Source: an uncultured virus (IMG/VR IMGVR_UViG_3300032309_002680)
Lineage: Duplodnaviria; Heunggongvirae; Uroviricota; Caudoviricetes
IMG/VR virus record: IMGVR_UViG_3300032309_002680
DNA length: 64,000 nucleotides
Reading direction: 5' to 3' (one strand)
Positions within the stretch are counted from its first letter, which is position 1, and each line of letters opens with the position of its first letter. Position numbers and translations under genes: made by a program. The notes beneath the pieces were generated by a model. The model was given only the letters and a program-made list of their open reading frames with translations. It did not search any database and was not told where the DNA came from. Positions 1-61,131 of this stretch are shown here, piece after piece.

Positions 1-336
1 AAAGGTGCATGGGAAATTACTTTGAGGTTAACCGAACCTAATAAGAAAATAACTATACCTGCATATACACAAATAGCAGCATTTATGCCCTTTTCCGCCG
101 CCGCACTTAATAATAGTAAAATTACCGTTAAATATAATGAAAGAATGTTAGAAGATTTTCCACCTGAAGATCAACATGCATATGTAGATAGTCAAACAGA
201 ACTTGGTAAAGGTACTGGACTTTATCGAAAAGGAATCGATCTAAGTGGCAAGAAATTAGGAGAACATGAAATATCCAAATTCACTCTCTTTTTCGACGAT
301 TCACTAGACCGAGAATATAGGAGCTATAATGTATGA
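1..336 (+). CDS. 5'-truncated DUF6065-like / dUTPase-like-fold phage protein
   Basis: Frame is open from base 1 (KGAWEITLRLTEPNKKITIPAYTQIAAFMPFS). This resembles the 'I..GTP..Q..PF' motif of the ORFs at 15190 and 16579. Confidence 0.45.
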   Translation, partial: KGAWEITLRLTEPNKKITIPAYTQIAAFMPFSAAALNNSKITVKYNERMLEDFPPEDQHAYVDSQTELGKGTGLYRKGIDLSGKKLGEHEISKFTLFFDDSLDREYRSYNV

Positions 337-11164: not shown

Positions 11165-12619
11165 ATGTCAACAGTAAGAATTCAAATTCGCAGAGGTACT
11201 GCAGCACAATGGACTGCAGCAAATCCAACTCTAGCCGCAGGAGAAATGGGCGTAGAGTCAGATACTAGAAAAACTAAAATTGGAACAGGTTCTACTGCTT
11301 GGACAGCCCTAGCTTATGCAAACGTTGTTCCTTCAGACTTATCAAATACACTTAGTGACTATCTTGAGGTAGCCGATAGAGGAGTTGCCAACGGAGTTGC
11401 ATCATTAGATGCCCAAGGACAGGTCCCAATTAATCAATTAGGAAATGTAATTGACGCAGCCCCTGGAGTACTAGATACTCTTAACGAGTTAGCAGCAGCC
11501 ATCAATGATGACGCAAGTTTTGTAACTACAATTAACAATAGCATTGCAACTAAATTAGCACTTGCTGGCGGAACAATGACTGGCGTTATTGCAATGGGTA
11601 ATAACAAAATCACAGGTCTTGCAACACCAACAGCAGATTATGATGCATCAACTAAGAAATATGCAGATGATCTACAAACACAGACAGTAGCAGGAATTGC
11701 ATCACACGCTGCTATTAGTACAAACGTTCACGGAGTAGCAGACATGGCAGCATTGGCAACAATGACATATGTCAGCACTGAAGTAACTGCACATAGCAAT
11801 GACACTACGAACGTACACGGAATTGGAAACACAGCATTACTTGCAACTCAAGAATATGCTACTAACGCAGTTACGGCAGAAGCAACTGCCAGAGGTGCAG
11901 CAATTGCAGCAGAAGCAACTGCTAGAGCAGCAGCAATTACAGCTGCCGCTACCACAGCAGCAACAAATTTAGATACCCACACCGCAGATACAACAAGCGT
12001 ACACGGTATTTCAGACACTTCATTACTTGCACTTAAATCAGAAGTTGCTGCAGTAACAGCCGCATCTCTTGGATTAGGTAACGTTACAAATACATCAGAT
12101 GCCGATAAGCCAGTTTCAACAGCACAGGCAACAGCAATAGCTGCAGCTCAAGCAGCAGCAATTGCAGATGCAACATCACAAGTTAATGCAGTAATTGCAT
12201 CAGCACCAGGAGCACTAAATACTCTTGACGAACTAGCAGCAGCACTTGGAGACGATGCAAACTACGCAGCATCAATTACAACAGCATTAGCTGGTAAAGT
12301 AGATTCATACACACCAATTGTAGAAAAAACAGCATCATACACATTGACATCTCTTACTGAAAGAGACGACTTAATTGAAGTAAATTCAACAAGCCCTTGC
12401 GTAATTTCAATTCCAGAGGACGCAACAGTAAACTATCCAGTAGGAACTTCTTTGGATATTCTTCAGACAAATACTGGAGAAGTATCAATTGCACCAGTTA
12501 GCGGAAATGTTACTGTTAACGCAACACCAGGATTAAAACTACGTACTCGGTGGTCATCTGCAACTATATTTAAGAGAGCAGCAAACACTTGGGTCGTTTA
12601 TGGAGATCTTAAAGCTTAA
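11165..12619 (+). CDS. Fibre protein with Mtd-N/hyaluronidase-N-like domain
   Basis: QIRRGTAAQWTAANPTLAAGEMGVESDT; two TL.ELAAA..DD motifs; HGI repeats; LGLGNVTNTSDADKPVS. Confidence 0.75.
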   Translation: MSTVRIQIRRGTAAQWTAANPTLAAGEMGVESDTRKTKIGTGSTAWTALAYANVVPSDLSNTLSDYLEVADRGVANGVASLDAQGQVPINQLGNVIDAAPGVLDTLNELAAAINDDASFVTTINNSIATKLALAGGTMTGVIAMGNNKITGLATPTADYDASTKKYADDLQTQTVAGIASHAAISTNVHGVADMAALATMTYVSTEVTAHSNDTTNVHGIGNTALLATQEYATNAVTAEATARGAAIAAEATARAAAITAAATTAATNLDTHTADTTSVHGISDTSLLALKSEVAAVTAASLGLGNVTNTSDADKPVSTAQATAIAAAQAAAIADATSQVNAVIASAPGALNTLDELAAALGDDANYAASITTALAGKVDSYTPIVEKTASYTLTSLTERDDLIEVNSTSPCVISIPEDATVNYPVGTSLDILQTNTGEVSIAPVSGNVTVNATPGLKLRTRWSSATIFKRAANTWVVYGDLKA

Positions 12620-12660: not shown

Positions 12661-13977
12661 ATGGCAAGAGGTAAAAAAGCAGGTAAAGTATCACAGTCAG
12701 CAAATGACTTTTTAGAGCCAAAGGCACCAACGTCAGTAACCGCAACAGACGTAGGTTCAGGTCGTGCATTCAATAATGGACGGGCTGATGTAACATTTTC
12801 TTTACCAGCAGACTCACCTGCAGCCACATCCTACACAGTAACATCCTCTCCAGGATCATACACTGCGTCAGGAGCATCATCTCCAATATCTGTAACTGGT
12901 CTACAATCAAATACAGCATACACATTTACAGTTATAGCAACAAATGCAGTTGGAAACTCGCCAGCATCTAGTGCGTCTAGTAGCATTACTGCAACAACAG
13001 TTCCTGCTACAATTGGAACACCATCAGCAGCAAACAATGGAGCACAAAACAATCGGGCTTCCTGGTCAACACCAGCAGACGGTGGATCAGCAATTATTGA
13101 TTATTATGTAGAAGATAATGGTGGAGGCGGAGACGACAATAAGACCGTAGCAGTTGGAACAAACAGCGTAGATTTTGCAAGCCAAAACAATGACTTTGTT
13201 TGGAACTTTAGAGTACGGGCTAGAAATGCTAATGGAAGTGGAGAATTTTCTCCTTATTCAGGAAACATTACTACAACCCCATTCAGCTTTGCACCGTTCG
13301 GCTTCACACCGTTCGGCTTCACACCGTTCGGCTTCACACCGTTCGGCTTCACACCGTTCGGCTTCACCCCAGGAAAATCAATTGGAGCAGATACATTAAT
13401 TCATTCAAAGGTTCCTGAAGGTCTTGTGTTAGCTCACAACGTTTCTGCAGGAGATATTTTGTACTCAGCAGCAATTGATGATTTGCCAATGGACGGCGTA
13501 GGACTAGAAGAAATTATTGAATCTTGGTCATCTACTTCACCACAAATTAATACTGATATAGAAACAACAGTGGTATCTATTTCAGCAAATATTGCAATGA
13601 CTACCTATGTAATTAATGGAAATAAATATACAAATACTCACTGGGTATTAGCTAAAAGAGACGGAGTAGCAAGATTTATTTCAGCAAATGAAATTGTAGA
13701 AACAGATTTAATTTACTCTCCAACATTTAGTGACTGGCAGCCAATTATTGAGCTAAGAGTTTCAGAAGGACCAGAGTTAGTTATTACTATTAACACAGAG
13801 CCTTATGACGTATTCTTTACAGACAACTCTTTAGTCCACGACTCAGTTAGACTAGACATAACATCACCTAACGTTATTACTGAGCCAAACCAAAGCGTTT
13901 CTGAATCTCTAGAGGTACTTTACCAGCAATGGAAAGACTCTACAGCAGGAGACACCGACCCTACAACTCCTGCCTAA
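12661..13977 (+). CDS. Fibronectin type III x2 + (PFGFT)n repeat + Hint domain protein
   Basis: FN3 motifs (VTGLQSNTAYTFTVIATNAVG; FRVRARNANG); PFSFA(PFGFT)5; Hint block A SIGADTLI, block B TNTH, block G FFTDNSLVHD. Confidence 0.8.
   Translation: MARGKKAGKVSQSANDFLEPKAPTSVTATDVGSGRAFNNGRADVTFSLPADSPAATSYTVTSSPGSYTASGASSPISVTGLQSNTAYTFTVIATNAVGNSPASSASSSITATTVPATIGTPSAANNGAQNNRASWSTPADGGSAIIDYYVEDNGGGGDDNKTVAVGTNSVDFASQNNDFVWNFRVRARNANGSGEFSPYSGNITTTPFSFAPFGFTPFGFTPFGFTPFGFTPFGFTPGKSIGADTLIHSKVPEGLVLAHNVSAGDILYSAAIDDLPMDGVGLEEIIESWSSTSPQINTDIETTVVSISANIAMTTYVINGNKYTNTHWVLAKRDGVARFISANEIVETDLIYSPTFSDWQPIIELRVSEGPELVITINTEPYDVFFTDNSLVHDSVRLDITSPNVITEPNQSVSESLEVLYQQWKDSTAGDTDPTTPA
13279..13371 (+). 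repeat. 15-bp tandem repeat CCGTTCGGCTTCACA x5 plus one diverged unit
   Basis: Units start at 13294, 13309, 13324, 13339 and 13354 (the last ends ACC). A diverged unit CCATTCAGCTTTGCA starts at 13279. Confidence 0.97.
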
Positions 13978-13982
13978 TAAGC

Positions 13983-14624
13983 ATGCTTAATTTAGTTAAG
14001 CATATTTACAATATGGGATTTGTTGGTGCAAAATCAACAAAAGGTTTTATTTTTCCAATATTTAGAAAATATCCTAAATATATAAAAGGATCCTGGATTC
14101 AATGGACATTAATGCAAGACGTACATGGAAATAGAGGAATTGAATGCCTTTACCTTAATGATAAAAATCCATCTGGAACATTAATATTTTCTAATTTTAT
14201 AAATAATGACTATCCTACTTCATGGATAGATATTTTAAATATACAAGACGATAAAGAAAAAAATTGTAAAGATGCCGTAGTAAACAGAGTTTATTGCCAG
14301 CCCTACTACAGAAGAAAAAAGATAAATATTTCCTTAGCTATATTAGGGTATACTGTTTGGTGGGCAAAGTATAATGTTAGAGTTAGACAAGGTCTTTCTG
14401 CAAGCAAAGCTGCTTCTAATATGCAAAAACAATCAGCTAAATTAATATTGGCTTTAAAATTTAAAAGATCTAAAAATAAAAAAAATGAGAATATAGTTTT
14501 GGGAGAGTCAAAAGAAATTATTCTAGAGCAAGATTTAGAGCACTTCAAAGATCCTATTTTGCCAGCAACTTGGCATTCTCTCAGACCTTACGAAAAAACC
14601 CCAAATGAAATTTTAGAGAAATAA
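13983..14624 (+). CDS. GNAT-like acyltransferase (putative)
   Basis: VNRVYCQPYYRRKKI resembles GNAT acetyl-CoA-binding motif A; ATG at 13983 follows the upstream stop. Confidence 0.45.
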   Translation: MLNLVKHIYNMGFVGAKSTKGFIFPIFRKYPKYIKGSWIQWTLMQDVHGNRGIECLYLNDKNPSGTLIFSNFINNDYPTSWIDILNIQDDKEKNCKDAVVNRVYCQPYYRRKKINISLAILGYTVWWAKYNVRVRQGLSASKAASNMQKQSAKLILALKFKRSKNKKNENIVLGESKEIILEQDLEHFKDPILPATWHSLRPYEKTPNEILEK

Positions 14625-14629
14625 AAATT

Positions 14630-15190
14630 ATGATAACAAAACTAGAAAACATTAGAAACGAATTCTTATATAAACAATATAAAGATATGATTGACTCAAT
14701 GTATGAAGAAGTAGGTTCTGCAAAATGGGGAGTCAGAACAAAAATTAAAACAAAAAAAATTTCTTTGATTGATTATAGAACTTTTAACTTTTTTGGAATG
14801 TACCATAAAGAGATATATAAATTATACCTAGAGATATCTAAAGTTGTCAAAGAACAGTGTCAAATAAATAGCATAAATTTTGAAAAAAATTATTATTATT
14901 TATTAGGAAATATATTAGATCAATCTGTTAGTGAGTTTCTGGTTACAACCCCAGACAGAACAAGATTAAATTTTTCTGGGGTATATGTAATTAAAAGTAA
15001 TGGAAATAAAATGATAATTAATGAAAAAGAAGTAGATACCTTAGAGGGTACCTTGATTATGTTTAATAAAGGAGATATAATAGATTTTTGTGATACAATA
15101 AATAAAGACAGCGTGTTTTTGTATTTTTCTGTATCCACACTACAAAATTTACACAGGCAGTACTATCAGAAATGGATACCGTTAGCTTAA
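14630..15190 (+). CDS. Degenerate paralog of the 17332/17979 2OG-Fe(II) oxygenases
   Basis: FNFFGMYHKEIYKLYLEIS..KEQC..I.FEK..Y and C-terminal WIPL align by eye with 17332; metal-binding His residues are missing. Confidence 0.55.
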   Translation: MITKLENIRNEFLYKQYKDMIDSMYEEVGSAKWGVRTKIKTKKISLIDYRTFNFFGMYHKEIYKLYLEISKVVKEQCQINSINFEKNYYYLLGNILDQSVSEFLVTTPDRTRLNFSGVYVIKSNGNKMIINEKEVDTLEGTLIMFNKGDIIDFCDTINKDSVFLYFSVSTLQNLHRQYYQKWIPLA

Positions 15191-15903
15191 TGAAAATTGA
15201 ATTTCTTCCAAAATATAGAGGCCTTGAGAAGATATTCCCACAGCCTCAATCAGTATCCTCGTTGCTTCCAGAATGGTGGAAAAAACAAAAAAGCTATTTA
15301 AATGACGATACATCCGTTCACAGTGGGAACATGTTATTAACAGTAAAAAAATGTCAAGCAGTTTTTGACTCTATGACTTTTGGATACTATTTGCTTTGTC
15401 CCATGGATCTAAGCATAGATGCCACTGGAGACACATTAACAATTGATATTCCAAACGATACAAGAGAGTTCCAGAAATTTTTATTAGCCCACCATTTATC
15501 TGAACAAATTCAGGAGTATCCTATACCTAATAATTTTCACAAACAGGTTATAAGAATACATCCAATGTGGGTTGTTAGAACAGAGACAGGATATAGTTGC
15601 TTGTTTGTAAACCCAATGCACGGATCAAAAAGCCCTCTACAGGCCATCCCAGGGTTAATAGACACCGATAAGTATGTTTCTGATGGCTATTTGTCCTTTT
15701 TTGTAGAAAAGGGATTTAAGGGAGTAATTGAGCAAGGAACTCCAATTGTTCAAGTTATTCCTTTTAAGAGAGACGACTGGGAAAGCTCTCTTAATAAAGA
15801 AAAAGATTCCGATACTCAAATCAGAGCCCAGCAACTTTCGGTTAGATCGGTTTTTAGAAACGGTTATAGGAAAAAAATGTGGTCGAAAAAAATATTTCGA
15901 TAA
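15190..15903 (+). CDS. DUF6065-like / dUTPase-like-fold phage protein
   Basis: LPEWWKK, TVKKC..VFDSM.FGY, GLIDTD, GTPIVQVIPFKRDDW; TAATG overlap at 15190. Confidence 0.6.
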   Translation: MKIEFLPKYRGLEKIFPQPQSVSSLLPEWWKKQKSYLNDDTSVHSGNMLLTVKKCQAVFDSMTFGYYLLCPMDLSIDATGDTLTIDIPNDTREFQKFLLAHHLSEQIQEYPIPNNFHKQVIRIHPMWVVRTETGYSCLFVNPMHGSKSPLQAIPGLIDTDKYVSDGYLSFFVEKGFKGVIEQGTPIVQVIPFKRDDWESSLNKEKDSDTQIRAQQLSVRSVFRNGYRKKMWSKKIFR

Positions 15904-16589
15904 ATAAAAGTTTTCCCATATTAAGGGCACCATTTGAATCTAACTCTTGGCTAGAAATGTCTTCAATGAGCTTTAAAGATATTTTAAAAGAGTGTAACGT
16001 TTTTTATGATTGGGCAACCTGGGAACAAGTTTTAAAAAAATATAAAGACAATGTTTTAAAACCAATAAACCTATATGTAGATAATTTTGGGATTAAGCCA
16101 GAAGTAGAAGTAGTTTCTAAAAATGAAATTAATTTAATATACAAGAACTACTCAGACATTTTATGGCAAGGACACCCCACAAGTAATAAACAAATATCAA
16201 GTATATTCTATGCATCCGAAAAAGCCATGGTCAGGCAGTTTTATCCATCGTTTTTGTCTATTGAAAGCTTTAAGGAATTGTTAGACCAAAATGATTTTAA
16301 GCAGGCCTCTGATAGAATTTTTAAGATATATGTTCCTTGGATTATTGATTGTTCTGCAGAATACAGCATAAAAAACATTAAAAAAGACCCAGTAATCTGT
16401 ATTATAGAGAGCACTGGAGTCTTTGAAAAAACCGACAATAATGATATAATAAAGGAACCAACTTTTATAGATTTTTGTTTTTTATCTAATGGAAAGCAAA
16501 TAAACCTAATAGAGAGAAATACTCCACTATTTTATATTTCTATAAAAGCTACAGAAAAGGTTATTCAAAAAATTATTAATGAGCAATAA
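15879..16589 (+). CDS. Hypothetical protein, possibly a diverged paralog of the flanking DUF6065-like genes
   Basis: KIYVPWII and IERNTPLFYI echo WKIPWH and IKKGTPIFQV of the 16579 gene. Confidence 0.45.
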   Translation: MVEKNISINKSFPILRAPFESNSWLEMSSMSFKDILKECNVFYDWATWEQVLKKYKDNVLKPINLYVDNFGIKPEVEVVSKNEINLIYKNYSDILWQGHPTSNKQISSIFYASEKAMVRQFYPSFLSIESFKELLDQNDFKQASDRIFKIYVPWIIDCSAEYSIKNIKKDPVICIIESTGVFEKTDNNDIIKEPTFIDFCFLSNGKQINLIERNTPLFYISIKATEKVIQKIINEQ

Positions 16590-17331
16590 CAATTTAATAA
16601 TCAAATTTACCCCAGCAGAGGTTAATCTTAATTTTGAGCCAAAAGACTATGCGCCACCATCTCCTGCAATAAATAAATTGCCAGAATGGTATAGAAAGCT
16701 TTCTAGGTTTCAAACATCTAATGATTTGTCAAAGTTGTTCCCAGTAAATGATAGAGGCACTGATGGTAGTGCTGGTTCTACTAAATTGTGTATGCCATTT
16801 CTTGATTCCCTATCGGCAGGTTACATGTTTTGCTTAGAAGATGATATTGAAGTAACTTTAGATAAAAGCGGGTTTCCTTCTATTAAAAATACAAATAATT
16901 TTATGTTGGTTGATAAAAGAAATATGGTTGAGGTTGCAGTTCCACACGAACACCACCCTATGCATTATGGATGGAAGATCCCTTGGCATTGCGAAACTCC
17001 ACCAGGGTATTCTATTTTAATTACACACCCACACAATAGGCACGACCTACCCTTTACTACTCTTTCTGGAATCATAGACTCTGACGATTGGAACGCACCA
17101 GTGTTTACAGCATTTTTTCTAAAAAGAAATTTTATGGGAACTATTAAAAAAGGAACTCCTATATTCCAAGTTTTTCCATTTAAAAGAGAAAACTGGGAAA
17201 TGTCATTAGATTATTCTAAAGAAGATATTGTGCAAAAAAAGATTAAAGAAGAAAAAAGAAGAATATCAATATATTCATACTATAAAGACTTTGTATGGAA
17301 AAGAAAAACCTACACGAGGAAAGAGGAATAA
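16579..17331 (+). CDS. DUF6065-like / dUTPase-like-fold phage protein
   Basis: LPEWYRK, TKLCMPFLDSLSAGY, TPPGYS.L.THP.NR.DLPF, GIIDSD, GTPIFQVFPFKRENW. Confidence 0.6.
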   Translation: MSNNNLIIKFTPAEVNLNFEPKDYAPPSPAINKLPEWYRKLSRFQTSNDLSKLFPVNDRGTDGSAGSTKLCMPFLDSLSAGYMFCLEDDIEVTLDKSGFPSIKNTNNFMLVDKRNMVEVAVPHEHHPMHYGWKIPWHCETPPGYSILITHPHNRHDLPFTTLSGIIDSDDWNAPVFTAFFLKRNFMGTIKKGTPIFQVFPFKRENWEMSLDYSKEDIVQKKIKEEKRRISIYSYYKDFVWKRKTYTRKEE

Positions 17332-17982
17332 ATGGAGTATCTATTGTCTGGAAAAAATAAACCTAGTGGAAAACCCCACAAGTTTTTTGAAAGAATTTTG
17401 GACAACGACTTAAAAGAGTTGTCTTTGTTTTTACAAGATCAGTATTCTAAAATTGAAAATTTAAGCATGAAAGGCATTACCGAGGTGTCTAAATCGGATT
17501 ACTGGAAAGAGTCTGGTAGCGTATCTACAATAAAATGGAGAGACTATAATGTTTTTCAATTTTACCACCCAGGGATATACAATTTGTATAAGGAGCTGTC
17601 TAGTGTAATTAAAGAAGCTTGCTCTTATTATGAAATTGATTTTGATAAACAAAAATATATGGTTCAGGGATGGTTTAATATAAATTATTCAGAAGTTGGA
17701 AAGCTAGATTGGCACGACCACGGAGGTCCTTATGCTCCTTATTTCCATGGATTCTATTGCGTAAAAGCAGAACCTTCAATTACTTATTATAAAGTTTTTG
17801 AAAAAGAAATTGAAAATCATAACATAGACAATCGAATGATTGTTTCAGAAATGGGTCACCCGCATGCTATGGGTAATTGGGACTGGGAAGGTCCTAGAAT
17901 TACAATTGCCTACGACATAATGCCACTAAATTCTATTATTGAAGCAAAAGCAAGTCCTCAACATTGGATTCCGCTATTATGA
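17332..17982 (+). CDS. 2OG-Fe(II) oxygenase-like protein
   Basis: WFNIN...WHDH, HGFYCV, distal HPH and RITIAYD. Confidence 0.7.
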   Translation: MEYLLSGKNKPSGKPHKFFERILDNDLKELSLFLQDQYSKIENLSMKGITEVSKSDYWKESGSVSTIKWRDYNVFQFYHPGIYNLYKELSSVIKEACSYYEIDFDKQKYMVQGWFNINYSEVGKLDWHDHGGPYAPYFHGFYCVKAEPSITYYKVFEKEIENHNIDNRMIVSEMGHPHAMGNWDWEGPRITIAYDIMPLNSIIEAKASPQHWIPLL

Positions 17983-18644
17983 AAGAAAAAAAAGATCAAA
18001 GATTTTTTGAAAGAACTTTAGATAACAATTTAGAAAATCTTTATAATTTTTTGTTAGAAAAAAATAATGAATTAGTTGAACAGGCAAGCAAAGAAATGGG
18101 AGAAGGTTTAGACAAAGCGCTAGCCCAAGATCCAGGAATTCTGGATGCTATTGCTACAAAAAATAGTGAAAAATATAATCTTTGGACATTTGACAACCCA
18201 GAAATAAAAAAGTTAAAAGAGGCTATTGCCGACATGACAAAAGAAGCTTGCGAGTACTATGAGTATAAAGATAGTTCGTCAAAATTTATTACTCATGCTT
18301 GGTTTAATTTAGATAGAAAAATAGATGATCTTCGTCAGTCTGTAGACCCAAGAAAAGAAAGTTCGTTTTTTCATGACCACATGGACGGATCAGGATTTCC
18401 GCAGCTACACGGATTCTACTGTGTAAAAGCAGAGCCTTCAAGCACTTATTATAAAATTAACAATAAAGATATCTTTGAAAATGTTAATAAAAACAACAGG
18501 GCTATTTTATCGGAAACTGGCAATCCACACGGTAGAGGTAATTGGTACGAAGATGAACCAAGAATGACAATAGCCTATGATGTTATTGTGGTTCCAAATG
18601 GACCAATGGGCATAGATAGTGTTTTTGTGGATCTGTTTGAATGA
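17979..18644 (+). CDS. 2OG-Fe(II) oxygenase-like protein, tandem paralog of 17332
   Basis: Shares FFER.LDN.L, HDH, HGFYCVKAEPS.TYYK, PH and R.TIAYD; ATGA overlap. Confidence 0.7.
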   Translation: MKEKKDQRFFERTLDNNLENLYNFLLEKNNELVEQASKEMGEGLDKALAQDPGILDAIATKNSEKYNLWTFDNPEIKKLKEAIADMTKEACEYYEYKDSSSKFITHAWFNLDRKIDDLRQSVDPRKESSFFHDHMDGSGFPQLHGFYCVKAEPSSTYYKINNKDIFENVNKNNRAILSETGNPHGRGNWYEDEPRMTIAYDVIVVPNGPMGIDSVFVDLFE

Positions 18645-19462
18645 AAGACATTGGCATAGTTTTATATTCTTTTCAAAATAAAGATTTAGTCGATTTGGTT
18701 GAAAAAAATATAGAAAATTCCAGTGGTTTAAACAATTTATTTTTTTATATAATTGATCAAAACAATATTGATAGAAAAAAAATCTTAAAATCTAAATATC
18801 CAAATGTAAAAATTTATTATAAGTATGTAAAATGGGATAGCATTAAGAGCCCAGTTTTGCATAAACAAGAAGGTTATAGGCTTTTTCAAAAAGAATACTT
18901 TTTGTTAATCGGAGACGGGGTAAGTCTAAATAAAAATTGGGATGAGGATCTTATTGAAAAAATAGAATTTCTTAGCTTAGAAGGAGAATGCGTTCTGTCT
19001 GGAAACCATGAGATAGTCCCATATTTAGAAAATCCGTTTGTTATTTCATATAAAAAAGAGCCTATTTTTCAAGAAACTTTAACAAAATATATAGACAAAG
19101 ATTTTATTTTTACAAAGTCTAAATCTTTTTTATATAACAAATTGCCAGGTTATTTAAAGTACCATGGAGAAAAAGAGCACCTATCAATATATTTTAATTT
19201 AATAAAAATTTTTGCCCTTCCAACAAATTTTTTTAAAAATGAAACAGTTGAGCTAGATAAAATTGAATATTTGCCTTTTTCTGTATATCACGGGTATAAT
19301 GAGTTTGTGAGCAAATGGAGTTCAAGCATTAAGCAGTTGTTTGGATTCGAAGTATTAAGCCTACCATTTTCTACAGATGATGTTTCGTATGACCCCTCTG
19401 GGTCCTTAACGGACAAAGTCGGTGGAGAGAGATATTTAAACTTTAAAGGAGTAATAAATTGA
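18641..19462 (+). CDS. GT-A glycosyltransferase, GT60/GlcNAc-transferase-like (diverged)
   Basis: EYFLLIGDGVSLNKNWDEDLI and YHGEKEHLSI resemble the GT60-like Y.LQIDSH..F...WD..LI and F.GEE..LS motifs; the DxH motif is altered. Confidence 0.5.
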   Translation: MKDIGIVLYSFQNKDLVDLVEKNIENSSGLNNLFFYIIDQNNIDRKKILKSKYPNVKIYYKYVKWDSIKSPVLHKQEGYRLFQKEYFLLIGDGVSLNKNWDEDLIEKIEFLSLEGECVLSGNHEIVPYLENPFVISYKKEPIFQETLTKYIDKDFIFTKSKSFLYNKLPGYLKYHGEKEHLSIYFNLIKIFALPTNFFKNETVELDKIEYLPFSVYHGYNEFVSKWSSSIKQLFGFEVLSLPFSTDDVSYDPSGSLTDKVGGERYLNFKGVIN

Positions 19463-20007
19463 GTAGCATGATAAAAATTGTAGAAGACTTTATATCAGAA
19501 CAAGATGCGTTTGCTCTAATAGAAGAGATGCAATCTCCGTCTAAAATAAATCCGTACCCAGAATACTATAAAGACAGAAATGGTGGTACTGCTTTTCCAT
19601 ATAACAACAGGGTGATGGACATATTAAAAAAATATTCAGTAAGAGCAAATCACATTCAAAAAGAATTTTTTAATTTAAAAGACAAAGTAATCGTTACCAA
19701 GGCTTTTGGATCGTGGTGGCAGCCAGGACAAAGTGGAAGTCCTCACATAGATGCAATTGAAAAAGAGCCTTTTATAGAATATAGCACCGTCATTTATTTA
19801 AATGATGACTACGAAGGCGGAGAGATCTATTTCCCAAAACAAAATTTTGAACATAGGCCCAAGTCCTTGTCAGCTATTTTTTTTCCAGGAAACAAATATG
19901 AATACTTACATGGAGTAAAAGAAATAACTAAAGGAAATAGATTTACCGCACTTTATATGCAATCTACAAAAGTAGATTTCGCTGATCCAGACTTTGAGGT
20001 ATTGTAA
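19459..20007 (+). CDS. Prolyl-4-hydroxylase-like 2OG-Fe(II) oxygenase
   Basis: HID...YLNDDYEGGEIYF...HGVKEI..GNR. Confidence 0.85.
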   Translation: MSSMIKIVEDFISEQDAFALIEEMQSPSKINPYPEYYKDRNGGTAFPYNNRVMDILKKYSVRANHIQKEFFNLKDKVIVTKAFGSWWQPGQSGSPHIDAIEKEPFIEYSTVIYLNDDYEGGEIYFPKQNFEHRPKSLSAIFFPGNKYEYLHGVKEITKGNRFTALYMQSTKVDFADPDFEVL

Positions 20008-20660
20008 TGAATAGAGAAATTCTCTCACTTGGAATGGCTTACTATAAAAATATCATACCAGACCCAGCATCTTTAATTAAAAAAATTGAAGATTTAGAAA
20101 TAAAAAGAAGCGAAACTAATGGATATGAGTCTTTGTATGTTAGAGGATGGCAGCCTTGGGACTACGACCATGGTGGAAAAGAAAAAACTGTTTTTTGCTG
20201 GCAAAAGTTTATACCAAAATCTGAAGATATTCCAAAAGATGATTTATTTTATAACGAGCAAAAAGAAATATCAGATGTATTATTTGGAGCACTAGAAAAA
20301 GGATTACAAGATTATTTTTCTATTTATCCATACTCTCAAAAAAATATTAAATCAAGAGAAAAAACAATGCATCTTTTAAAGTATAAAGAGTCAGGATTCT
20401 TGCCAGCACACTCAGACCACGGAATTAGCAGCAGAGTTTTATCGGCATTACTTTATTTAAACGACGATTACGAAGGAGGAAATATTAAATTTGAGCATGC
20501 AGGTGTAACTTTAAAACCAGAAGCTGGTAGCTTATTGTTTTTTCCTTCTAATTATATATACGTACACGAGGTCTCTGCAGTAACTTCTGGAATTAGATAC
20601 GCTCTTCCAAACTGGTACCACAATAGGTCTAAGGCCTACTATTCGGATGGCACAGAATGA
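20007..20660 (+). CDS. Prolyl-4-hydroxylase-like 2OG-Fe(II) oxygenase
   Basis: HSD...YLNDDYEGG...FFPSNYIYVHEV..V.SG.RY. Confidence 0.88.
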   Translation: MNREILSLGMAYYKNIIPDPASLIKKIEDLEIKRSETNGYESLYVRGWQPWDYDHGGKEKTVFCWQKFIPKSEDIPKDDLFYNEQKEISDVLFGALEKGLQDYFSIYPYSQKNIKSREKTMHLLKYKESGFLPAHSDHGISSRVLSALLYLNDDYEGGNIKFEHAGVTLKPEAGSLLFFPSNYIYVHEVSAVTSGIRYALPNWYHNRSKAYYSDGTE

Positions 20661-21346
20661 CCGTTTTAGTAGTCGGAGCAGTAAGAGGAATAGGAAACGA
20701 AGTTGCCAAAAGGCTAGTGTCTTTAGGTCATGATGTTATTGGAGTAGGAAGGCATATTAGGACCCCCACAAGCAATGACTCTTTTGAATACATACAGACA
20801 GATATTGTTGACCAAGAAAAACTAGATAATTTATTTAAAAATATAAAATCAAGAAATATTGTTATTTCTGGAATTGTAAATTGTGCTGGAGCTTATTGGA
20901 CATCCCCAGCGTATGGTGAAATTTTTCCACAAGTTGAGCAAATGATGGATATTAATGTTTTGGGCCCATATAATGTCATATCTAAATTTCTTCCACTTGT
21001 AAATCCAAACAAGCACACCCCAATAATTAATATATCAAGTTTGGCGGCCCATTATCTGAATTCAGAATCTATGTATTCAGCATCCAAGGCAGCATTAGAA
21101 ACATATACAAGGTCTTTAGCTAAACAAGTTTGTGGTACTGGAATTAGGCCAAATTGCATTGCTCCAGGGCCGATAAGAACTAGATTTACAAAGTTTATGC
21201 CAGAAGAGTATTTTCAGTGGGTGTTAGGCGGTCAAATTATTCCTAAAGAGTTTACAGTACACGATATAGCAAATGTAGTAGAGTTACTTTTTGATGAGAA
21301 GTCTTCTAGCCTGTCTGGTCAAGTTTTTCACATAGGAGGATATTAA
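20657..21346 (+). CDS. Short-chain dehydrogenase/reductase (SDR)
   Basis: GAVRGIG, VNCAG, NISS, YSASK, N.IAPG. Confidence 0.92.
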   Translation: MTVLVVGAVRGIGNEVAKRLVSLGHDVIGVGRHIRTPTSNDSFEYIQTDIVDQEKLDNLFKNIKSRNIVISGIVNCAGAYWTSPAYGEIFPQVEQMMDINVLGPYNVISKFLPLVNPNKHTPIINISSLAAHYLNSESMYSASKAALETYTRSLAKQVCGTGIRPNCIAPGPIRTRFTKFMPEEYFQWVLGGQIIPKEFTVHDIANVVELLFDEKSSSLSGQVFHIGGY

Positions 21347-21371: not shown

Positions 21372-23072
21372 ATGTCGTATAATCTTAGAGTTTTATCAGA
21401 CAATCCGCTGGCTTTTTGGCCAAGCGGAACAGATGATATTTCTGGATTCGACAACCAGGTATCAATAGTCGGATCGGTAGATAATACAAATTTACCACTA
21501 GTTATTGGTGCAGAAAACTCTTCAAAACTTTCTGGAACTGCCGCCATTACCTACATAGATATAGATGGTATTGCAACTAAAAATTTTTCCGATGATCAAT
21601 TTTCTATAGAATGCTGGGTTAGGGTAAATACTACCTCTTCTTTAGAAATACCAATTGTAGGAGACTCTTCTAATGATATAGGACTATTTTATAAAAAAGG
21701 TAATATAGTATTTTCAATAGGTACAGAGTATATAGAGTACACCGTTCCTTTCTTAAAAAAATCTATATATATAGTTGCAGTATATAATAAGAATAAAATT
21801 ATACTGTATATAGATGGAAAGATAGAAGCAGAAAAAGATCTGTCTAGCTTTTCTTTTTCAAATGAATCTATTTTAATAAAGTCGGGACCAGTAAACAATA
21901 GTTTAGACTATATGCTTTTAAATTGTGTATCTTTTTACAGAAGTTCTTTAACTAAAGATCAAATTTTATCTCATTATTTAGAAAATAAATCTTTAAGCCC
22001 TACTCAAATAGTTTACCCAGATCAAGGTAATTTTTTTGAACTTACAGATAAATCAATTTCAACAAAGTATTCCTATTCCTATCCAGCCAATAAGTCATGG
22101 CAGTATTTTATTAACGATAATAATTTATATTATAACTCTCAAAAAGAATTTATCGGTGTTGTAAAGGGAAACGGAGATTCACAATCTATTGTTATTGAGG
22201 ATTTTATTACAATTCCAAGCGGACCAGAGATGAACTCTTCAAGAATTGAATGGGACGGGGATAACGGAGTTTCTGTTTCAGTAAGTGTCGATGGTCAAAA
22301 CTATCAATCTTGCGTTAATGGACAACCGATACCCCAGTATTCATTAAGCTCTTTTAGTCAAACAAGAAATTTATATATTAGAGTTTATTTTACAACATCA
22401 GACGATAGCGTGTACTTGCCATCCTTAAAATTTTTATCTATAAGCTTTTATAACAATCAAAAAATTTACTCAAAAAATTCTTCTAATTATATAGCCAGCC
22501 AGCAAGACATCCCTGTAAGCAATAACAAATATGAAATACTTTCTACAGATAACAGAAACGGCATCAGCTTAAAAAATCTTTCATCGTTTTATATAAATAC
22601 GACAACCCCAACAAAATCGATAGAGTTTTTTTATACACCGTATTCTATTCAAAATGGAGGGTTGGTTACATCTGTTGCTACAAGCGGGTACAGTGAAAGT
22701 AGCCTTACTTGGTCAAGCAATACAATATCTAAAAGCAATATATCCAAAATATACGTTAATGGGGTAGATAAGACAAGCCAGACTAATATAAATAATTTGT
22801 TTTTAAAAGATTCTCTTCACCACGTTGTTATTGTTTTTGAAAATAGCATATATGGAGAAATTTCTATTAATAAATCTAGCGTTTTGGGAGGGCAAAGCCT
22901 ATATCAGAATTTGGCTATTTATGAATCAGCCCTGAGTGCCGAAAAAGTTCAGGATCATTTTAATAAATATGTATCTTCCCAAGGTACAATTATTGAAGAT
23001 CAACTAGGTAAAATGTCAGAGCTGTCGGTTGATTATTTCAATTCTGACTGGATAGTGGTACAAAATATTTAA
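21372..23072 (+). CDS. LamG/concanavalin-A-like domain virion protein
   Basis: VLSDNPLAFW, FSIECWV, LYIDG motifs; leaderless-type start. Confidence 0.65.
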   Translation: MSYNLRVLSDNPLAFWPSGTDDISGFDNQVSIVGSVDNTNLPLVIGAENSSKLSGTAAITYIDIDGIATKNFSDDQFSIECWVRVNTTSSLEIPIVGDSSNDIGLFYKKGNIVFSIGTEYIEYTVPFLKKSIYIVAVYNKNKIILYIDGKIEAEKDLSSFSFSNESILIKSGPVNNSLDYMLLNCVSFYRSSLTKDQILSHYLENKSLSPTQIVYPDQGNFFELTDKSISTKYSYSYPANKSWQYFINDNNLYYNSQKEFIGVVKGNGDSQSIVIEDFITIPSGPEMNSSRIEWDGDNGVSVSVSVDGQNYQSCVNGQPIPQYSLSSFSQTRNLYIRVYFTTSDDSVYLPSLKFLSISFYNNQKIYSKNSSNYIASQQDIPVSNNKYEILSTDNRNGISLKNLSSFYINTTTPTKSIEFFYTPYSIQNGGLVTSVATSGYSESSLTWSSNTISKSNISKIYVNGVDKTSQTNINNLFLKDSLHHVVIVFENSIYGEISINKSSVLGGQSLYQNLAIYESALSAEKVQDHFNKYVSSQGTIIEDQLGKMSELSVDYFNSDWIVVQNI

Positions 23073-25066: not shown

Positions 25067-25120
25067 TTATTAGGCAACCAGTATTTGCCTTATATACAAT
25101 ACCGTTATAAAATTAGGCAT

Positions 25121-60126: not shown

Positions 60127-61131
60127 ATGACAATTTTAATGGAAGAGATTTTAGCAAAACTGGATTCAAAAACAAGAGACAGAGTTCAGTCTGCAGTAGA
60201 TGTTAAAATCATAAAACAAAAAACTCCAAGCATTGGTTTAAACTTAGCACTCAACGGTGGACTTGGACATGGAAGACAGGCCTTGGTATGGGGAAATAAG
60301 TCTTCTGGTAAATCTTCCTTTTGTTTGCAAATGATTGCTCTTGCTCAAAAAGAAGGAAAAACTTGCGCTTGGATTGACGCAGAGCATTCTTACTCTCCAG
60401 AGTGGGCAGAAAAATTAGGTGTTGACTCATCAAAACTAATATACTCGCCAGCTAAAACTATTAATGACATGGTGGACGTTGCAACAAAACTTATGTCTGC
60501 AGATATAGATATTATTGTAGTTGATTCAATATCAGCTTTGTTGCCTGCAATATATTTTGAAAAAGATGGCGACGAGTTAAAAGATTTACAAGATACAAAA
60601 CAGATAGGCGCAGAAGCAAAGGATATGACCCACGCAGTCAAAATGTTAAACTATGCAAACAAAAACACATTATTGGTTCTCATTTCACAGCAAAGAAACC
60701 AGTTTGGATCTATGCACGCCTCCCATATTCCAACAGGGGGAATGGCGGTCAAGTTCTTTTCTTCTACGGTCATTAAGCTTTGGTCCTCAGAAGCTGAGGC
60801 TAATGCTATCAAGGCAGGTATTAAAGTTGGCGATAAAATTATTGAACAGAGAGTTGGAAGGCCAGTCAATTGGATTGTCGATTACAACAAACTCGGCCCC
60901 CCTAATTTATCAGGACAGTACGACTTCTATTACCAAGGAGATCATTTAGGAGTTGACGATATTGGAGAAACTTTAGACGTAGCAGAAATGTGCGGATTAG
61001 TTGAAAAAGGTGGCGCTTGGTACACAGTTAACTCAGAAAGATTGCAGGGTAGAGCTAAAGCCGTACAGTATCTAAAGGATAATCCAAAAGTTGTTGAAAA
61101 ACTTAAGAAAGATATAGATGCTAAGATTTAA
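60127..61131 (+). CDS. recA: RecA/UvsX-like recombinase
   Basis: GNKSSGKS, WIDAEH, VVDSI, TGG.A.KF, GAWY. Confidence 0.92.
   Translation: MTILMEEILAKLDSKTRDRVQSAVDVKIIKQKTPSIGLNLALNGGLGHGRQALVWGNKSSGKSSFCLQMIALAQKEGKTCAWIDAEHSYSPEWAEKLGVDSSKLIYSPAKTINDMVDVATKLMSADIDIIVVDSISALLPAIYFEKDGDELKDLQDTKQIGAEAKDMTHAVKMLNYANKNTLLVLISQQRNQFGSMHASHIPTGGMAVKFFSSTVIKLWSSEAEANAIKAGIKVGDKIIEQRVGRPVNWIVDYNKLGPPNLSGQYDFYYQGDHLGVDDIGETLDVAEMCGLVEKGGAWYTVNSERLQGRAKAVQYLKDNPKVVEKLKKDIDAKI

What the first reader, a model, noticed from the sequence alone, without database searches (positions are those of the whole stretch)
12661..21346. Candidate phage peptide-modification system: FN3-(PFGFT)n-Hint protein followed by an 11-gene tailoring operon
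Seen: the last gene of the fibre module encodes two FN3 domains, PFSFA(PFGFT)5 and a Hint domain. It is followed with almost no intergenic space by a GNAT-like gene, five 2OG-Fe(II) oxygenase-fold genes (two prolyl-4-hydroxylase-like, two HDH-type, one degenerate), three DUF6065-like genes, a GT60-like glycosyltransferase and an SDR. Known: P4H enzymes hydroxylate peptidyl-Pro, GT60 enzymes (Dictyostelium Gnt1) add GlcNAc to hydroxyproline, and Hint domains self-cleave. Inference: the Pro/Phe/Thr repeat is the substrate of the adjacent enzymes, and Hint cleavage leaves it as the C-terminus of a virion protein. That would be a RiPP-like or extensin-like decoration pathway, possibly for receptor binding or surface shielding. 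I know of no characterised phage pathway of this form.
Basis: partly seen in the sequence, partly recalled or inferred. Interest (0 to 1): 0.9.

Follow-up and report, generated by a model that had tools for sequence, protein, structure and literature searches.

The report
Phage repeat-Hint protein beside hydroxylase cassette
An uncultured lake phage has a fibre-region protein with a Pro/Phe/Gly/Thr repeat capped by a self-cleaving-type (Hint) domain and followed by hydroxylase, sugar-transferase and other enzyme genes; the repeat is a testable candidate substrate, but related phages keep the same enzymes far from that gene.

Summary
Gene 12661-13977 encodes two FN3 domains, PFSFA(PFGFT)5 and a Ser-start Hint (bacterial-intein-like) domain. 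Eleven tightly packed co-directional genes follow.

Checked identities:
- two prolyl-4-hydroxylase-type oxygenases;
- two intact and one degenerate oxygenase of a second family (HDH; fold predicted);
- a classical SDR;
- a glycosyltransferase-like gene and a GNAT-like gene (both weak);
- two DUF6065-like genes, whose predicted fold is dUTPase-like, not a peptide-tailoring fold.

For the substrate idea: among 74 unique FN3-type relatives, the adjacent enzyme set follows repeat chemistry (oxygenases beside PFF 33/33, PFGFT 31/32, Pro-free FGA 0/8). The PFGFT peptide is kept through 84 synonymous DNA versions.

Against it:
- only 3-4 independent contrasts (p 0.25);
- P4H-like genes are scattered through the complete genomes;
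- in both long FGA-type records the same cassette sits 50-65 kb away, behind another Pro-rich protein gene.

Verdict: the repeat-Hint cassette is real and widespread. The enzyme link is plausible (about 0.4) but positional and unproven. My searches found no paper describing it. This scan has noted the same kind of system in eight other genomes.

The parts
11165..12619 (+). Upstream fibre-type protein (484 aa) with an Mtd_N N-terminal domain; places the finding at the end of the fibre module
   Evidence: Pfam Mtd_N 3.3e-15; many PHROG tail-fibre families
12661..13977 (+). FN3-FN3-PFSFA(PFGFT)5-Hint protein, 438 aa
   Evidence: 96% identical homologue in G001; 78 related loci
13279..13368 (+). 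Repeat tract PFSFA(PFGFT)5 (residues 207-236); holds a perfect 15-bp x 5.1 tandem DNA array at 13292-13367
   Evidence: Unit number ranges from 0 to 10 among unique PFGFT-class proteins, and 84 synonymous 15-mers encode PFGFT across relatives
13378..13842 (+). Ser-start Hint / B-type bacterial-intein-like domain (Ser240 to Asp394); Lys239 precedes the nucleophile
   Evidence: hhalign 98.5% to Cys-type relatives; PDB 2lwy 1.2e-4 and inteins; Ser, block-B His and terminal Asp each invariant in 45 unique domains
13843..13974 (+). 44-residue extension after the Hint domain; function unknown
   Evidence: alignment; extension lengths of 4-98 residues among relatives
13983..14624 (+). g231, GNAT-like (weak); ORF opens at 13929 but relatives align from 13983
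   Evidence: Acetyltransf_1 in 3 of 12 relatives, best E 0.014; present with Lys(-1) Ser-type Hint 33/33, absent 0/4 otherwise, from one evolutionary change; RNA-library contigs bridge the junction in 3 of 4 runs
14630..15190 (+). g186, degenerate paralogue of the HDH oxygenase family (metal-ligand motifs missing)
   Evidence: alignment A4
15172..15903 (+). D65a, DUF6065-like protein with a predicted dUTPase-like fold
   Evidence: phrog_7084 4.6e-46; PF19541 26.3 bits against cut-off 26.6; hhalign 95% to true DUF6065; model pLDDT 80.2; VIA top 22 hits all dUTPase/dCTP-deaminase fold, Z 9.4-5.6
15879..16589 (+). g236, unknown; always between the two DUF6065-like genes in the full cassette
   Evidence: relation to D65 not shown (hhalign 4.8%)
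16579..17331 (+). D65b, second DUF6065-like protein
   Evidence: phrog_7084 1.3e-33; PF19541 1.1e-4
17332..17982 (+). g216, HDH-family 2OG-oxygenase-fold protein (HDH...GHPH motifs)
   Evidence: alignment; model pLDDT 80.8; Foldseek 3bvc/2rg4 5e-5, then HIF and Dictyostelium prolyl hydroxylases
17964..18644 (+). g226, second intact HDH-family paralogue
   Evidence: alignment (38% identity to g216)
18641..19462 (+). GT273, glycosyltransferase-like protein (lead only)
   Evidence: no Pfam or PDB sequence hit; PF11397 in 2 of 7 relatives, E 0.036; Atlas neighbours GT2, score 0.96-0.97
19459..20007 (+). ox182, P4H-type 2OG-Fe(II) oxygenase; its subfamily occurs in 47 loci
   Evidence: phrog_61 8e-17; subfamily clustering; family profile against solved P4Hs 2e-15
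20007..20660 (+). ox217, P4H-type 2OG-Fe(II) oxygenase
   Evidence: PF13640 4.2e-15, 56.9 bits; invariant H135, D137, H187
20657..21346 (+). Classical short-chain dehydrogenase/reductase
   Evidence: adh_short 3.6e-36; NCBIfam hits (FabG-like, YmfI-like) all below cut-offs
21372..23072 (+). Laminin_G_3 (concanavalin-like) protein that bounds the block on the portal side
   Evidence: Pfam 6.6e-10; phrog_11584
61118..62032 (+). Further P4H-like oxygenase gene, 40 kb from the block
   Evidence: blastp 44% to OX subfamily 6; NCBIfam Fe2+-dependent dioxygenase 1e-4

Best explanation
The phage. This is a ~111-kb lake siphophage of an actinophage-like lineage.

The protein. The last gene of its fibre module encodes FN3-FN3, a length-variable aromatic repeat and a B-type intein-like (Hint) domain.
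- Inferred: the Hint domain shifts the Lys239-Ser240 peptide bond to an ester and cuts there. This would release an FN3 body whose new C-terminus is the PFGFT tract.
- Shown: the repeat-plus-Hint unit is a portable cassette. It sits on several unrelated N-terminal bodies in related phages.

The downstream genes. The 11 genes form a separable accessory cassette. It holds hydroxylases of two DSBH families, a glycosyltransferase-like gene, an SDR, a GNAT-like gene and dUTPase-fold proteins.
- Most likely (inferred): the oxygenases hydroxylate Pro in Pro-rich low-complexity tracts of phage proteins. In this phage the adjacent PFGFT tract is the nearest candidate, with a sugar possibly added to Hyp or Thr.
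- The dUTPase-fold DUF6065-like proteins probably do something else, possibly a nucleotide-binding role.

No chemistry is shown.
For: Fold and family:
- Hint assignment and catalytic positions.
- The OX profile's best solved relatives are peptidyl-prolyl hydroxylases: B. anthracis P4H 2e-15, P3H1 5e-15, Chlamydomonas P4H 1.5e-10, PBCV-1 P4H 4.4e-10. The HxD...H triad is invariant.
- The HDH model has a DSBH fold, with prolyl hydroxylases among its top hits.

Adjacency and matching chemistry, over 74 unique FN3-type relatives with usable downstream DNA:
- any DSBH gene in the block: PFF-type 33/33, PFGFT-type 31/32, FGA-type 0/8, PYSFT 0/1;
- GT: PFGFT-type (Thr-bearing) 26/32, PFF 0/33, FGA 0/8;
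- P4H-like genes per block: 4-7 with PFF, 0-4 with PFGFT.

Other points:
- L157, a distant contig, repeats the design with about 38 PPxFF units, a Cys-Hint and 5 P4H-like genes.
- The peptide is under selection: 84 synonymous 15-mers encode PFGFT, and 46 of 47 proteins with at least 4 units use 3 or more DNA versions.
- The PFGFT tract is the only Pro/aromatic repeat ORF in the window.
- Where the cassette is unlinked (G003, G006) it lies just downstream of another protein with a dense Pro/Glu tract.
- Precedent: the PBCV-1 viral P4H acts on Pro-containing peptides (passages of PMC7019647).
Against: - In G003 (FGA repeat) the cassette g236-D65-HDH-GT-OX-OX, in the window's order, lies about 60 kb from the FN3 gene.
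- In G006 the same set lies 50-56 kb away.
- So 2 of 2 long FGA-type records keep the enzymes. 'No Pro, no oxygenase' holds only for adjacency.
- P4H-like genes are dispersed: G002 has 5 (3 outside the block), G003 6, G004 13, G005 9. The window has one at 61118.
- Independent contrasts are few: 3-4, all concordant, sign test p 0.25. An earlier, smaller set gave 1-2.
- FGA-clade proteins carry PVPVPV linkers, giving 21-31 Pro over the whole low-complexity region, with no adjacent oxygenase.
- Several PFGFT loci lack P4H-like genes in the block: L092, L095, L096, L101, L142.
- The DUF6065-like proteins have a dUTPase-like fold.
- In G003 the relocated cassette is followed by a carbamoyltransferase.
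- Virion incorporation, cleavage and any modification are untested.
Confidence: 0.4

Rival explanations
1. Positional coincidence. The gap between the fibre module and the RNR/portal genes is a plasticity hot-spot where accessory cassettes land. The oxygenases hydroxylate other proteins, not the PFGFT tract. Candidates are the Pro/Glu-rich ~680-aa protein, collagen-like or PT-rich phage proteins, or host proteins.
For: - The cassette is unlinked in G003 and G006 and sits behind a Pro/Glu-rich protein gene.
- A remnant P4H-like gene lies about 2.4 kb downstream of that protein's homologue in G002.
- G003 has a collagen-like GXY protein and a PT-rich protein.
- Collagen-repeat proteins follow the block in some relatives (Pfam Collagen 6e-21).
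- Block content is very variable.
- Few independent contrasts exist.
Against: - Adjacent enzyme content matches repeat chemistry in every independent contrast available.
- The window clade's complete genome, G002, shows no collagen-like ORF.
- The pairing recurs in the distant contig L157.
Confidence: 0.25
2. The cassette acts on nucleotides, DNA bases, sugars or a small molecule. One possibility is a base-hydroxylation-plus-glycosylation pathway. Another is synthesis of a modified sugar or metabolite. The dUTPase-fold proteins would then be the nucleotide-handling parts.
For: - The DUF6065-like proteins have a predicted dUTPase/dCTP-deaminase fold (Z 9.4-5.6).
- No canonical dUTPase (PF00692) occurs in 4 genomes at least 99% complete; the control rings in 12 of 14 known genomes.
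- D65 lies next to RNR in FGA-type relatives and in haloarchaeal viruses.
- GT, SDR and, in G003, a carbamoyltransferase are typical sugar or small-molecule enzymes.
- Thymine-7-hydroxylase is among the HDH fold hits (rank 8).
- Iyer et al. 2010 proposed secondary metabolism for cyanophage dioxygenase arrays (passages of PMC2938197).
Against: - The P4H-type family's closest solved relatives all act on protein Pro or Lys.
- There was only a weak Tet_JBP hit (E 0.0045, far below cut-off).
- PFF-type blocks have many oxygenases but no GT (0/33).
- A shared fold does not show a dUTPase function. Catalytic motifs were not tested.
Confidence: 0.2
3. The oxygenases are auxiliary metabolic genes. They consume or sense 2-oxoglutarate to steer host physiology and have no dedicated phage substrate.
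For: Sullivan et al. 2010 proposed 2OG modulation for the multiple 2OG-Fe(II) oxygenases of cyanomyoviruses (passages of PMC3037559). Copies are dispersed through the genomes here.
Against: - The idea rests on cyanobacterial NtcA biology, and this phage is actinophage-like (capsid protein 58% identical to Streptomyces phages).
- It does not explain eight OX subfamilies kept in conserved order with GT, SDR and DUF6065-like genes.
Confidence: 0.05

Closest known systems
B-type bacterial intein-like (BIL) domains and Hedgehog-type Hint autoprocessing domains
   Same: - Profile similarity to the solved BIL domain 2lwy and to inteins.
- Nucleophile at position 1 and block-B His are invariant.
- The domain sits at the C-terminus of variable proteins with no C-extein to splice. 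N-terminal cleavage is therefore the expected reaction, as reviewed for B-type BILs (passages of PMC7765530).
   Different: - Ser rather than Cys nucleophile in this clade.
- Invariant terminal Asp in place of Asn.
- Always preceded directly by an aromatic repeat.
- Found on phage fibre-module proteins.
- Cleavage is untested, and whether any adduct forms is unknown.
Chlorovirus PBCV-1 prolyl 4-hydroxylase and Pro-rich peptide substrates
   Same: A virus-encoded small P4H-type 2OG oxygenase. The PBCV-1 enzyme (5c5t) is a 4.4e-10 hit of the OX profile. [quoted passage not shown]
   Different: Here there are 2-13 paralogues per genome, a second DSBH family, and GT, SDR and DUF6065-like partners. 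The host is bacterial. The proposed substrate is an aromatic repeat capped by a Hint domain. The role of the PBCV-1 enzyme is also unknown.
Tandem dioxygenase arrays of cyanomyoviruses (Syn9; S-CREM1)
   Same: - Arrays of diverse classical 2OG dioxygenases in a phage (passages of PMC2938197).
- S-CREM1 places a DUF6065-like gene, annotated 'triphosphate nucleotidohydrolase', next to at least seven 2OG oxygenases (six complete, one cut at the locus end). A JmjC gene and a tryptophan halogenase lie there too, and Gly-rich 'collagen-like' proteins lie upstream.
   Different: - No aromatic-repeat or Hint protein lies beside the S-CREM1 array.
- The passages read from Iyer et al. name no co-encoded phage substrate.
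- The phage lineage and host are different.
Mycobacteriophage virion glycosylation (Che8 and relatives)
   Same: Actinobacteriophages use their own glycosyltransferases to decorate virion proteins. This is described in passages of PMC11256854, which cite Freeman et al. 2023. The primary paper was not read.
   Different: Those glycans are on capsid proteins, and the passages read mention no hydroxylases, repeat tract or Hint domain. The GT assignment here is weak.
Skp1 hydroxyproline glycosylation (cytoplasmic P4H plus GT60 GlcNAc-transferase) in Dictyostelium
   Same: The logic of a cytoplasmic prolyl hydroxylase followed by a sugar transferase. The Dictyostelium prolyl hydroxylase 6t8m is a fold hit of HDH. 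PF11397 hits are weak. The link between PF11397 and Skp1 is recalled, not tested.
   Different: Similarity is at fold or weak-profile level only. The target here would be a repeat, not one defined Pro. No evidence of Hyp or GlcNAc.

Membership tests
Hint superfamily (B-type BIL-like) | Cys/Ser/Thr nucleophile as first residue of the domain | tested here: met
   Ser240 in the window; Ser in 45 of 45 unique Ser-type domains; Cys in the 6 Cys-type relatives
Hint superfamily (B-type BIL-like) | Block B Thr-x-x-His | tested here: met
   His 45/45; Ser or Thr at -3 in 42/45
Hint superfamily (B-type BIL-like) | Significant profile similarity to known Hint/intein/BIL domains | tested here: met
   Ser-type profile against PDB: 2lwy 1.2e-4, intein 9hth 1.5e-3, gp41-1 intein 9e-3. 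hhalign 98.5% to Cys-type relatives, which hit Intein_splicing at 1.9e-5. Pfam gathering thresholds are not reached.
Hint superfamily (B-type BIL-like) | C-terminal His-Asn of inteins and A-type BILs | tested here: not met
   Terminal residue is Asp in 45/45; the penultimate residue is His 34, Tyr 6, Phe 5. This fits B-type BILs, which lack the intein C-terminal motif (PMC7765530 passages). Cys-type relatives do end in His-Asn-Lys.
Hint superfamily (B-type BIL-like) | Horseshoe Hint fold and autocleavage activity | not tested
P4H-type 2OG-Fe(II) oxygenase (PF13640) | Profile match above the curated cut-off | tested here: met
   ox217: 56.9 bits against cut-off 27. ox182 has no Pfam hit but matches phrog_61 at 8e-17 and falls in the same blastp cluster.
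P4H-type 2OG-Fe(II) oxygenase (PF13640) | His-x-Asp...His iron triad | tested here: met
   H135, D137 and H187 are invariant in 15 representatives of 14 subfamilies plus the two window genes
P4H-type 2OG-Fe(II) oxygenase (PF13640) | Hydroxylation of peptidyl proline | not testable with these tools
   Closest solved relatives are peptidyl-prolyl hydroxylases; the substrate here is unknown.
DUF6065 (PF19541) | Profile match above the curated cut-off | tested here: inconclusive
   D65a 26.3 bits and D65b 22.2 bits against cut-off 26.6. 11 of 23 family members match at E up to 1. hhalign 95.3% to true DUF6065 genes of relatives.
dUTPase / dCTP deaminase superfamily | dUTPase-like beta fold | tested here: met
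   Predicted model (pLDDT 80.2). Every row shown by Foldseek (ranks 1-50) is a dUTPase or dCTP deaminase, E from 2.7e-3. The VIA-align wide search's top 22 hits have the same fold, Z 9.4-5.6, then drop to 4.7.
dUTPase / dCTP deaminase superfamily | Sequence-family membership and catalytic motifs | tested here: inconclusive
   No PF00692 or PDB sequence hit. The likeness of two conserved D65 motifs to dUTPase motifs III and IV is recalled, not tested. Activity is not testable here.
GT60 / PF11397 GlcNAc-transferase | Profile match | tested here: inconclusive
   2 of 7 relatives, best E 0.036, none for the window protein; no PDB sequence hit; Atlas neighbours are GT2.
GNAT acetyltransferase | Profile match | tested here: inconclusive
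   Acetyltransf_1 in 3 of 12 relatives, best E 0.014, none for the window protein; no PDB hit.
Classical SDR | adh_short profile, Gly-rich cofactor motif, Tyr-x-x-x-Lys | tested here: met
   124.9 bits against cut-off 26.6. GAVRGIG and YSASK can be read in the translation.
RiPP pathway | Short leader-core precursor peptide released as a small product | tested here: not met
   The precursor is a 438-aa protein with two folded FN3 domains. After the predicted cut the repeat stays on the FN3 body. No recognition-element or protease gene was identified.

The most novel reading that the evidence does not exclude
These lake phages carry a modular protein-finishing system. A Hint domain cuts itself off several different fibre-module proteins and exposes an aromatic/Pro repeat tail. 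A matched, mobile set of hydroxylases then decorates that tail; in the PFGFT variant a sugar transferase, an SDR and a GNAT-like enzyme tied to the Lys before the cut site would also take part. The result would be an extensin-like or mussel-adhesive-like appendage on the virion for adhesion or shielding. If so, the long-orphan phage 2OG-oxygenase arrays finally have a substrate.
Probability: 0.25. Interest if true: 0.85.

Novelty: new variant of a known kind. Interest (0 to 1): 0.62.

Why it matters
Arrays of 2OG-Fe(II) oxygenases are common in aquatic phages. Their function has been open since at least 2010, with proposals of secondary metabolism or 2OG modulation.

This locus offers a concrete, co-encoded candidate substrate that can be tested by mass spectrometry. 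It also shows a previously undescribed, portable 'aromatic repeat + Hint' cassette on phage fibre-module proteins.

If the link holds, it would be a new kind of virion post-translational chemistry. If it fails, the dUTPase-fold DUF6065 proteins and the two alternative cassette positions point to a different, equally unexplored pathway.

Searches behind 'undescribed': DUF6065 gave 0 papers. The Hint/BIL-with-bacteriophage search and the hydroxyproline-with-bacteriophage search listed nothing relevant. A 2025 marine-phage proteomics paper has no occurrence of 'hydroxylation'.

Tried and rejected
- Phage collection: megablast of the locus found no match. tblastn of the FN3 protein found one weak FN3-only hit.
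- PDB sequence searches with single sequences or profiles found nothing meaningful. This covers the window's C-terminal domain alone, D65, GT and g231. HDH gave only spurious WD40 hits with no significant stretch.
- hhalign of HDH against OX and of D65 against OX: no relation. g236 against D65: 4.8%.
- ESM Atlas holds no structure for D65a or GT273.
- NCBIfam named nothing beyond a generic SDR and weak dioxygenase hits.
- Promoter-like and terminator-like sites are not above shuffles: 65 against 53.5±7.8, and 11 against 8.1±3.5. Operon boundaries are therefore not resolved.
- Complex prediction of ox217 with residues 196-242 gave no verdict (score 0.01, controls not run).
- The bacterial-genome scan for DUF6065 returned only 7 loci. 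The one whose ORFs I profiled, L157, is a phage of the same design. Five others are MAG contigs of 3.8-17 kb, 73-79% identical to phage DUF6065 genes, binned in four unrelated taxa. So nothing was learned about a cellular context.
- RNA libraries: 24 lake or freshwater metatranscriptome runs hold at most 21% of the sampled words. The contigs laid show that relatives of the locus are present in RNA libraries. They cannot rank genes by depth or exclude DNA carry-over.
- The Lys(-1)/g231 association is perfect but comes from a single change on the tree, so it is not counted as support.

Full report
**What is there**

The window belongs to a siphovirus-type phage. Portal, protease, capsid protein and a 2140-aa tape measure lie downstream. 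A 95%-identical relative sits on a complete 110,973-bp genome with terminal repeats (G002). The capsid protein is 58% identical to those of ~130-kb Streptomyces siphophages.

ORF 12661-13977 (438 aa) follows two fibre-type genes. It reads as follows:
- two FN3 domains (Pfam fn3, two stretches, 6.6e-12);
- PFSFA(PFGFT)5 at residues 207-236;
- Pro-Gly-Lys;
- a ~155-residue domain starting at Ser240;
- a 44-residue tail.

The repeat DNA is a perfect 15-bp x 5.1 array.

**The C-terminal domain is a Hint domain**

Pfam does not see it in the window protein. Three results support the assignment:
- A profile of 11 Ser-start domains matches a profile of 6 Cys-start relatives at 98.5% (E 3.4e-15).
- Those relatives begin with Cys and end in His-Asn-Lys. 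They give weak Intein_splicing, PT-HINT and Hint hits.
- The Ser-type profile itself hits the solved bacterial intein-like domain 2lwy (1.2e-4) and inteins.

Over 45 unique Ser-type domains the nucleophile Ser, the block-B His and a terminal Asp (in place of the intein Asn) are each invariant. This is the pattern reviewed for B-type BIL domains, which cleave at their N-terminus (passages of PMC7765530). Cleavage here is inferred, not shown.

**The eleven downstream genes**

They are co-directional, with overlaps of 1-25 nt or gaps of 0-5 nt.

| Gene(s) | Reading | Basis |
|---|---|---|
| ox217, ox182 | P4H-type 2OG oxygenases | ox217 scores 56.9 bits on PF13640. The family profile's best solved relatives are peptidyl-prolyl hydroxylases (2e-15 to 4e-10). 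The HxD...H triad is invariant. |
| g216, g226 | second oxygenase family (HDH) | HDH...GHPH motifs. The predicted model (pLDDT 80.8) has a DSBH fold. Top hits are two uncharacterised marine proteins, then HIF and Dictyostelium prolyl hydroxylases. |
| g186 | degenerate HDH paralogue | lacks the motifs |
| last gene | classical SDR | |
| GT273 | glycosyltransferase lead only | |
| g231 | GNAT lead only | |
| D65a, D65b | DUF6065-like | |
| g236 | unknown | not shown to be related to D65 |

The D65 model (pLDDT 80.2) has a dUTPase/dCTP-deaminase fold by two independent aligners. This agrees with the 'triphosphate nucleotidohydrolase' label on its homologue in Synechococcus phage S-CREM1. None of four phage genomes that are at least 99% complete has a canonical dUTPase.

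**Relatives: the repeat-Hint cassette is real and portable**

A protein-based scan gave 78 loci. A PFGFT-pattern scan gave 67 stretches. Over the 144 loci analysed, 105 unique repeat-bearing ORFs were found.

Every FN3-type relative carries an aromatic repeat, but the unit differs: PFGFT, FGA, FGVFGFSP, PFFPPFF-type, PYSFT or PPxFF.

The C-terminus is one of four kinds: a Ser-type Hint, a Cys-type Hint, a short Cys-rich tail, or nothing.

The repeat-plus-Hint unit also ends other proteins:
- 914-944-aa proteins in the same genomes as the FN3 type;
- 277-307-aa proteins;
- 321-326-aa proteins with a PFF repeat; the one scanned (321 aa, L055) also has a PASTA domain.

PFGFT is encoded by 84 different 15-mers. 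In 46 of 47 proteins with at least 4 units, three or more synonymous versions occur within one protein. So the peptide, not just the DNA, is maintained.

Counts are over 74 unique FN3-type proteins with usable downstream DNA.

| Repeat type | Any DSBH oxygenase in the block | GT in the block | P4H-like genes per block |
|---|---|---|---|
| PFF | 33/33 | 0/33 | 4-7 |
| PFGFT | 31/32 (L096 has none) | 26/32 | 0-4 |
| FGA | 0/8 | 0/8 | 0 |
| PYSFT | 0/1 | 0/1 | 0 |

The chemistry fits. There is nothing to hydroxylate or glycosylate in FGA, Thr occurs only in PFGFT, and PFF is Pro-dense.

The statistics are weak. On the FN3 tree there are only 3-4 independent contrasts, all concordant (sign test p 0.25). 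An earlier, smaller set gave 1-2. The raw Spearman correlation (rho 0.72, n = 40) ignores relatedness.

g231 follows the gene in 33/33 cases with Lys before the Ser and in 0/4 otherwise, but this traces to one change on the tree.

**Results against the simple reading**

- P4H-like genes are not confined to the block. G002 has 5 (3 elsewhere), G003 has 6, G004 has 13 and G005 has 9. The window has another at 61118-62032.
- In G003, whose FN3 protein has the Pro-free FGA repeat, a cassette g236-D65-HDH-GT-OX-OX lies at 29.0-33.2 kb. It keeps the window's order and is 28-59% identical. The FN3 gene is at 91 kb, with only one D65 gene left beside it.
- G006 (L113, FGA-dominant) shows the same: HDH, g236, D65, HDH, GT, OX, OX at 57.8-63.2 kb, while its FN3 gene is near 6 kb.
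- So both long FGA-type records keep the enzymes.
- FGA-clade proteins also carry PVPVPV linkers without adjacent oxygenases.
- Several PFGFT loci lack P4H-like genes in the block.

**A point that softens this**

In both G003 and G006 the relocated cassette lies co-directionally 0.5-2 kb downstream of a ~680-aa protein (677 and 694 aa) with a dense Pro/Glu tract. In G002 a P4H-like gene lies about 2.4 kb downstream of that protein's homologue. So the cassette has two 'homes', each behind a gene encoding a Pro-rich low-complexity tract.

The Pfam 'Extensin-like' hit on that tract is compositional only. In G003 a carbamoyltransferase follows the cassette, which favours a sugar or small-molecule reading.

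**Other contexts**

- DUF6065-like genes occur next to RNR in haloarchaeal tailed viruses.
- In cyanomyovirus S-CREM1 one lies beside at least seven 2OG oxygenases (six complete, one cut at the locus end). A JmjC gene and a tryptophan halogenase lie there too, with Gly-rich proteins upstream. No aromatic-repeat protein lies there.
- L157, a 78-kb contig binned as Bacteroidia, repeats the whole design. It has FN3 x2, about 38 PPxFF units, a Cys-Hint, then OX, OX, DUF6065, an unknown gene, OX, OX, OX, LamG and portal.

**RNA libraries**

Relatives of the locus are present in lake metatranscriptome assemblies. Contigs bridge the FN3-Hint/g231 junction in 3 of the 4 runs laid; X3 does not. Contigs cannot show a single transcript, rank genes or exclude DNA.

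**Literature**

- Iyer et al. 2010 described tandem dioxygenase arrays in cyanophages. They proposed secondary metabolism there, and collagen-like or tail-collar substrates for bacterial hydroxylase/sulfotransferase clusters (passages of PMC2938197).
- Sullivan et al. 2010 proposed 2OG modulation (passages of PMC3037559).
- The PBCV-1 P4H acts on Pro-containing peptides (passages of PMC7019647).
- Mycobacteriophage virion glycosylation is known (passages of PMC11256854).
- I found no paper on DUF6065. The listings I searched show none on repeat-Hint proteins of phages.

**Earlier notes of this scan**

Eight notes describe the same kind of system in other genomes, mostly the PFF variant. They agree with my reading but are not independent evidence.

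New here:
- the PFGFT variant's enzyme set;
- the dUTPase-like fold of DUF6065;
- the portability of the repeat-Hint unit;
- the unlinked cassettes in FGA-type genomes.

**Verdict**

| Claim | Probability |
|---|---|
| Repeat-Hint protein is real | secure |
| Hint assignment | ~0.9 |
| Self-cleavage that leaves the repeat C-terminal | ~0.7 (plausible) |
| Adjacent oxygenases modify this tract (best single explanation) | ~0.4 |
| Other protein substrates, link positional only | ~0.25 |
| Nucleotide, sugar or small-molecule pathway | ~0.2 |
| 2OG modulation | ~0.05 |

Noticed in passing
window 61118-62032 (+) and window 1-336 (+): A further P4H-like oxygenase gene lies 40 kb from the block. A 5'-truncated DUF6065-like ORF sits at the window's first bases (31% to a relative's true DUF6065).
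   Followed up: partly
G003 29.0-39.2 kb (L158:17491-20236, L162:282-9205); G006 55.2-64.7 kb (L172): The relocated cassette (g236-D65-HDH-GT-OX-OX) lies downstream of a Pro/Glu-rich ~680-aa protein. In G003 the flanking genes are a signal-peptide-bearing subtilase-like protein, a weak proteasome-like protein and a carbamoyltransferase (Carbam_trans_C 5e-50).
   Followed up: partly
L006/L011/L012/L015 (e.g. L011:8747-9454); G001 24895-25591: A tetrapyrrole-methylase-family gene (TP_methylase 4.4e-20) is inserted between the GT and the first P4H-like gene. It occurs in some close relatives but not in the window.
   Followed up: no
L037-L081 group (e.g. L071:1021-1455, L044:5931-6383): FN3-PFF proteins that end in a Cys-rich tail instead of a Hint domain are followed by an unknown 145-aa gene (c5) in 18 of 20 cases, and mostly also by an unknown 151-aa gene (c11). 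Neither gene occurs with other C-terminus types.
   Followed up: partly
L055:8400-9362, L064:13261-14241, L070:10022-12122: Cys-Hint-type loci also encode a collagen-repeat protein (Pfam Collagen 6e-21). The next gene encodes a 321-326-aa protein with a PFF repeat and its own Hint domain; the L055 copy, the only one scanned, also has a PASTA domain.
   Followed up: partly
L151-L156: Six phage-like contigs sit in MAGs assigned to five different taxa: Acidimicrobiaceae (two contigs), Luteolibacter, Flavobacteriales, Beijerinckiaceae and Bacteroidetes. Five are 73-79% identical to phage DUF6065 genes and one is 43% identical. These are probably phage contigs mis-binned, so they are no guide to the host.
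   Followed up: no
KC292022.1 27031-27873 (L083) and 52 other phage records: DUF6065-like homologues (~29% identity) occur in haloarchaeal tailed viruses (Hafunaviridae). There they lie between the baseplate/tail genes and ribonucleotide reductase. This is the same module boundary as in the FGA-type lake phages.
   Followed up: partly
window 13329-14599: In lake metatranscriptome assemblies, the contigs covering the fibre gene, the FN3-Hint gene and g231 have much higher word depth than those covering the rest of the block. The tool warns that contig depth cannot rank genes.
   Followed up: partly
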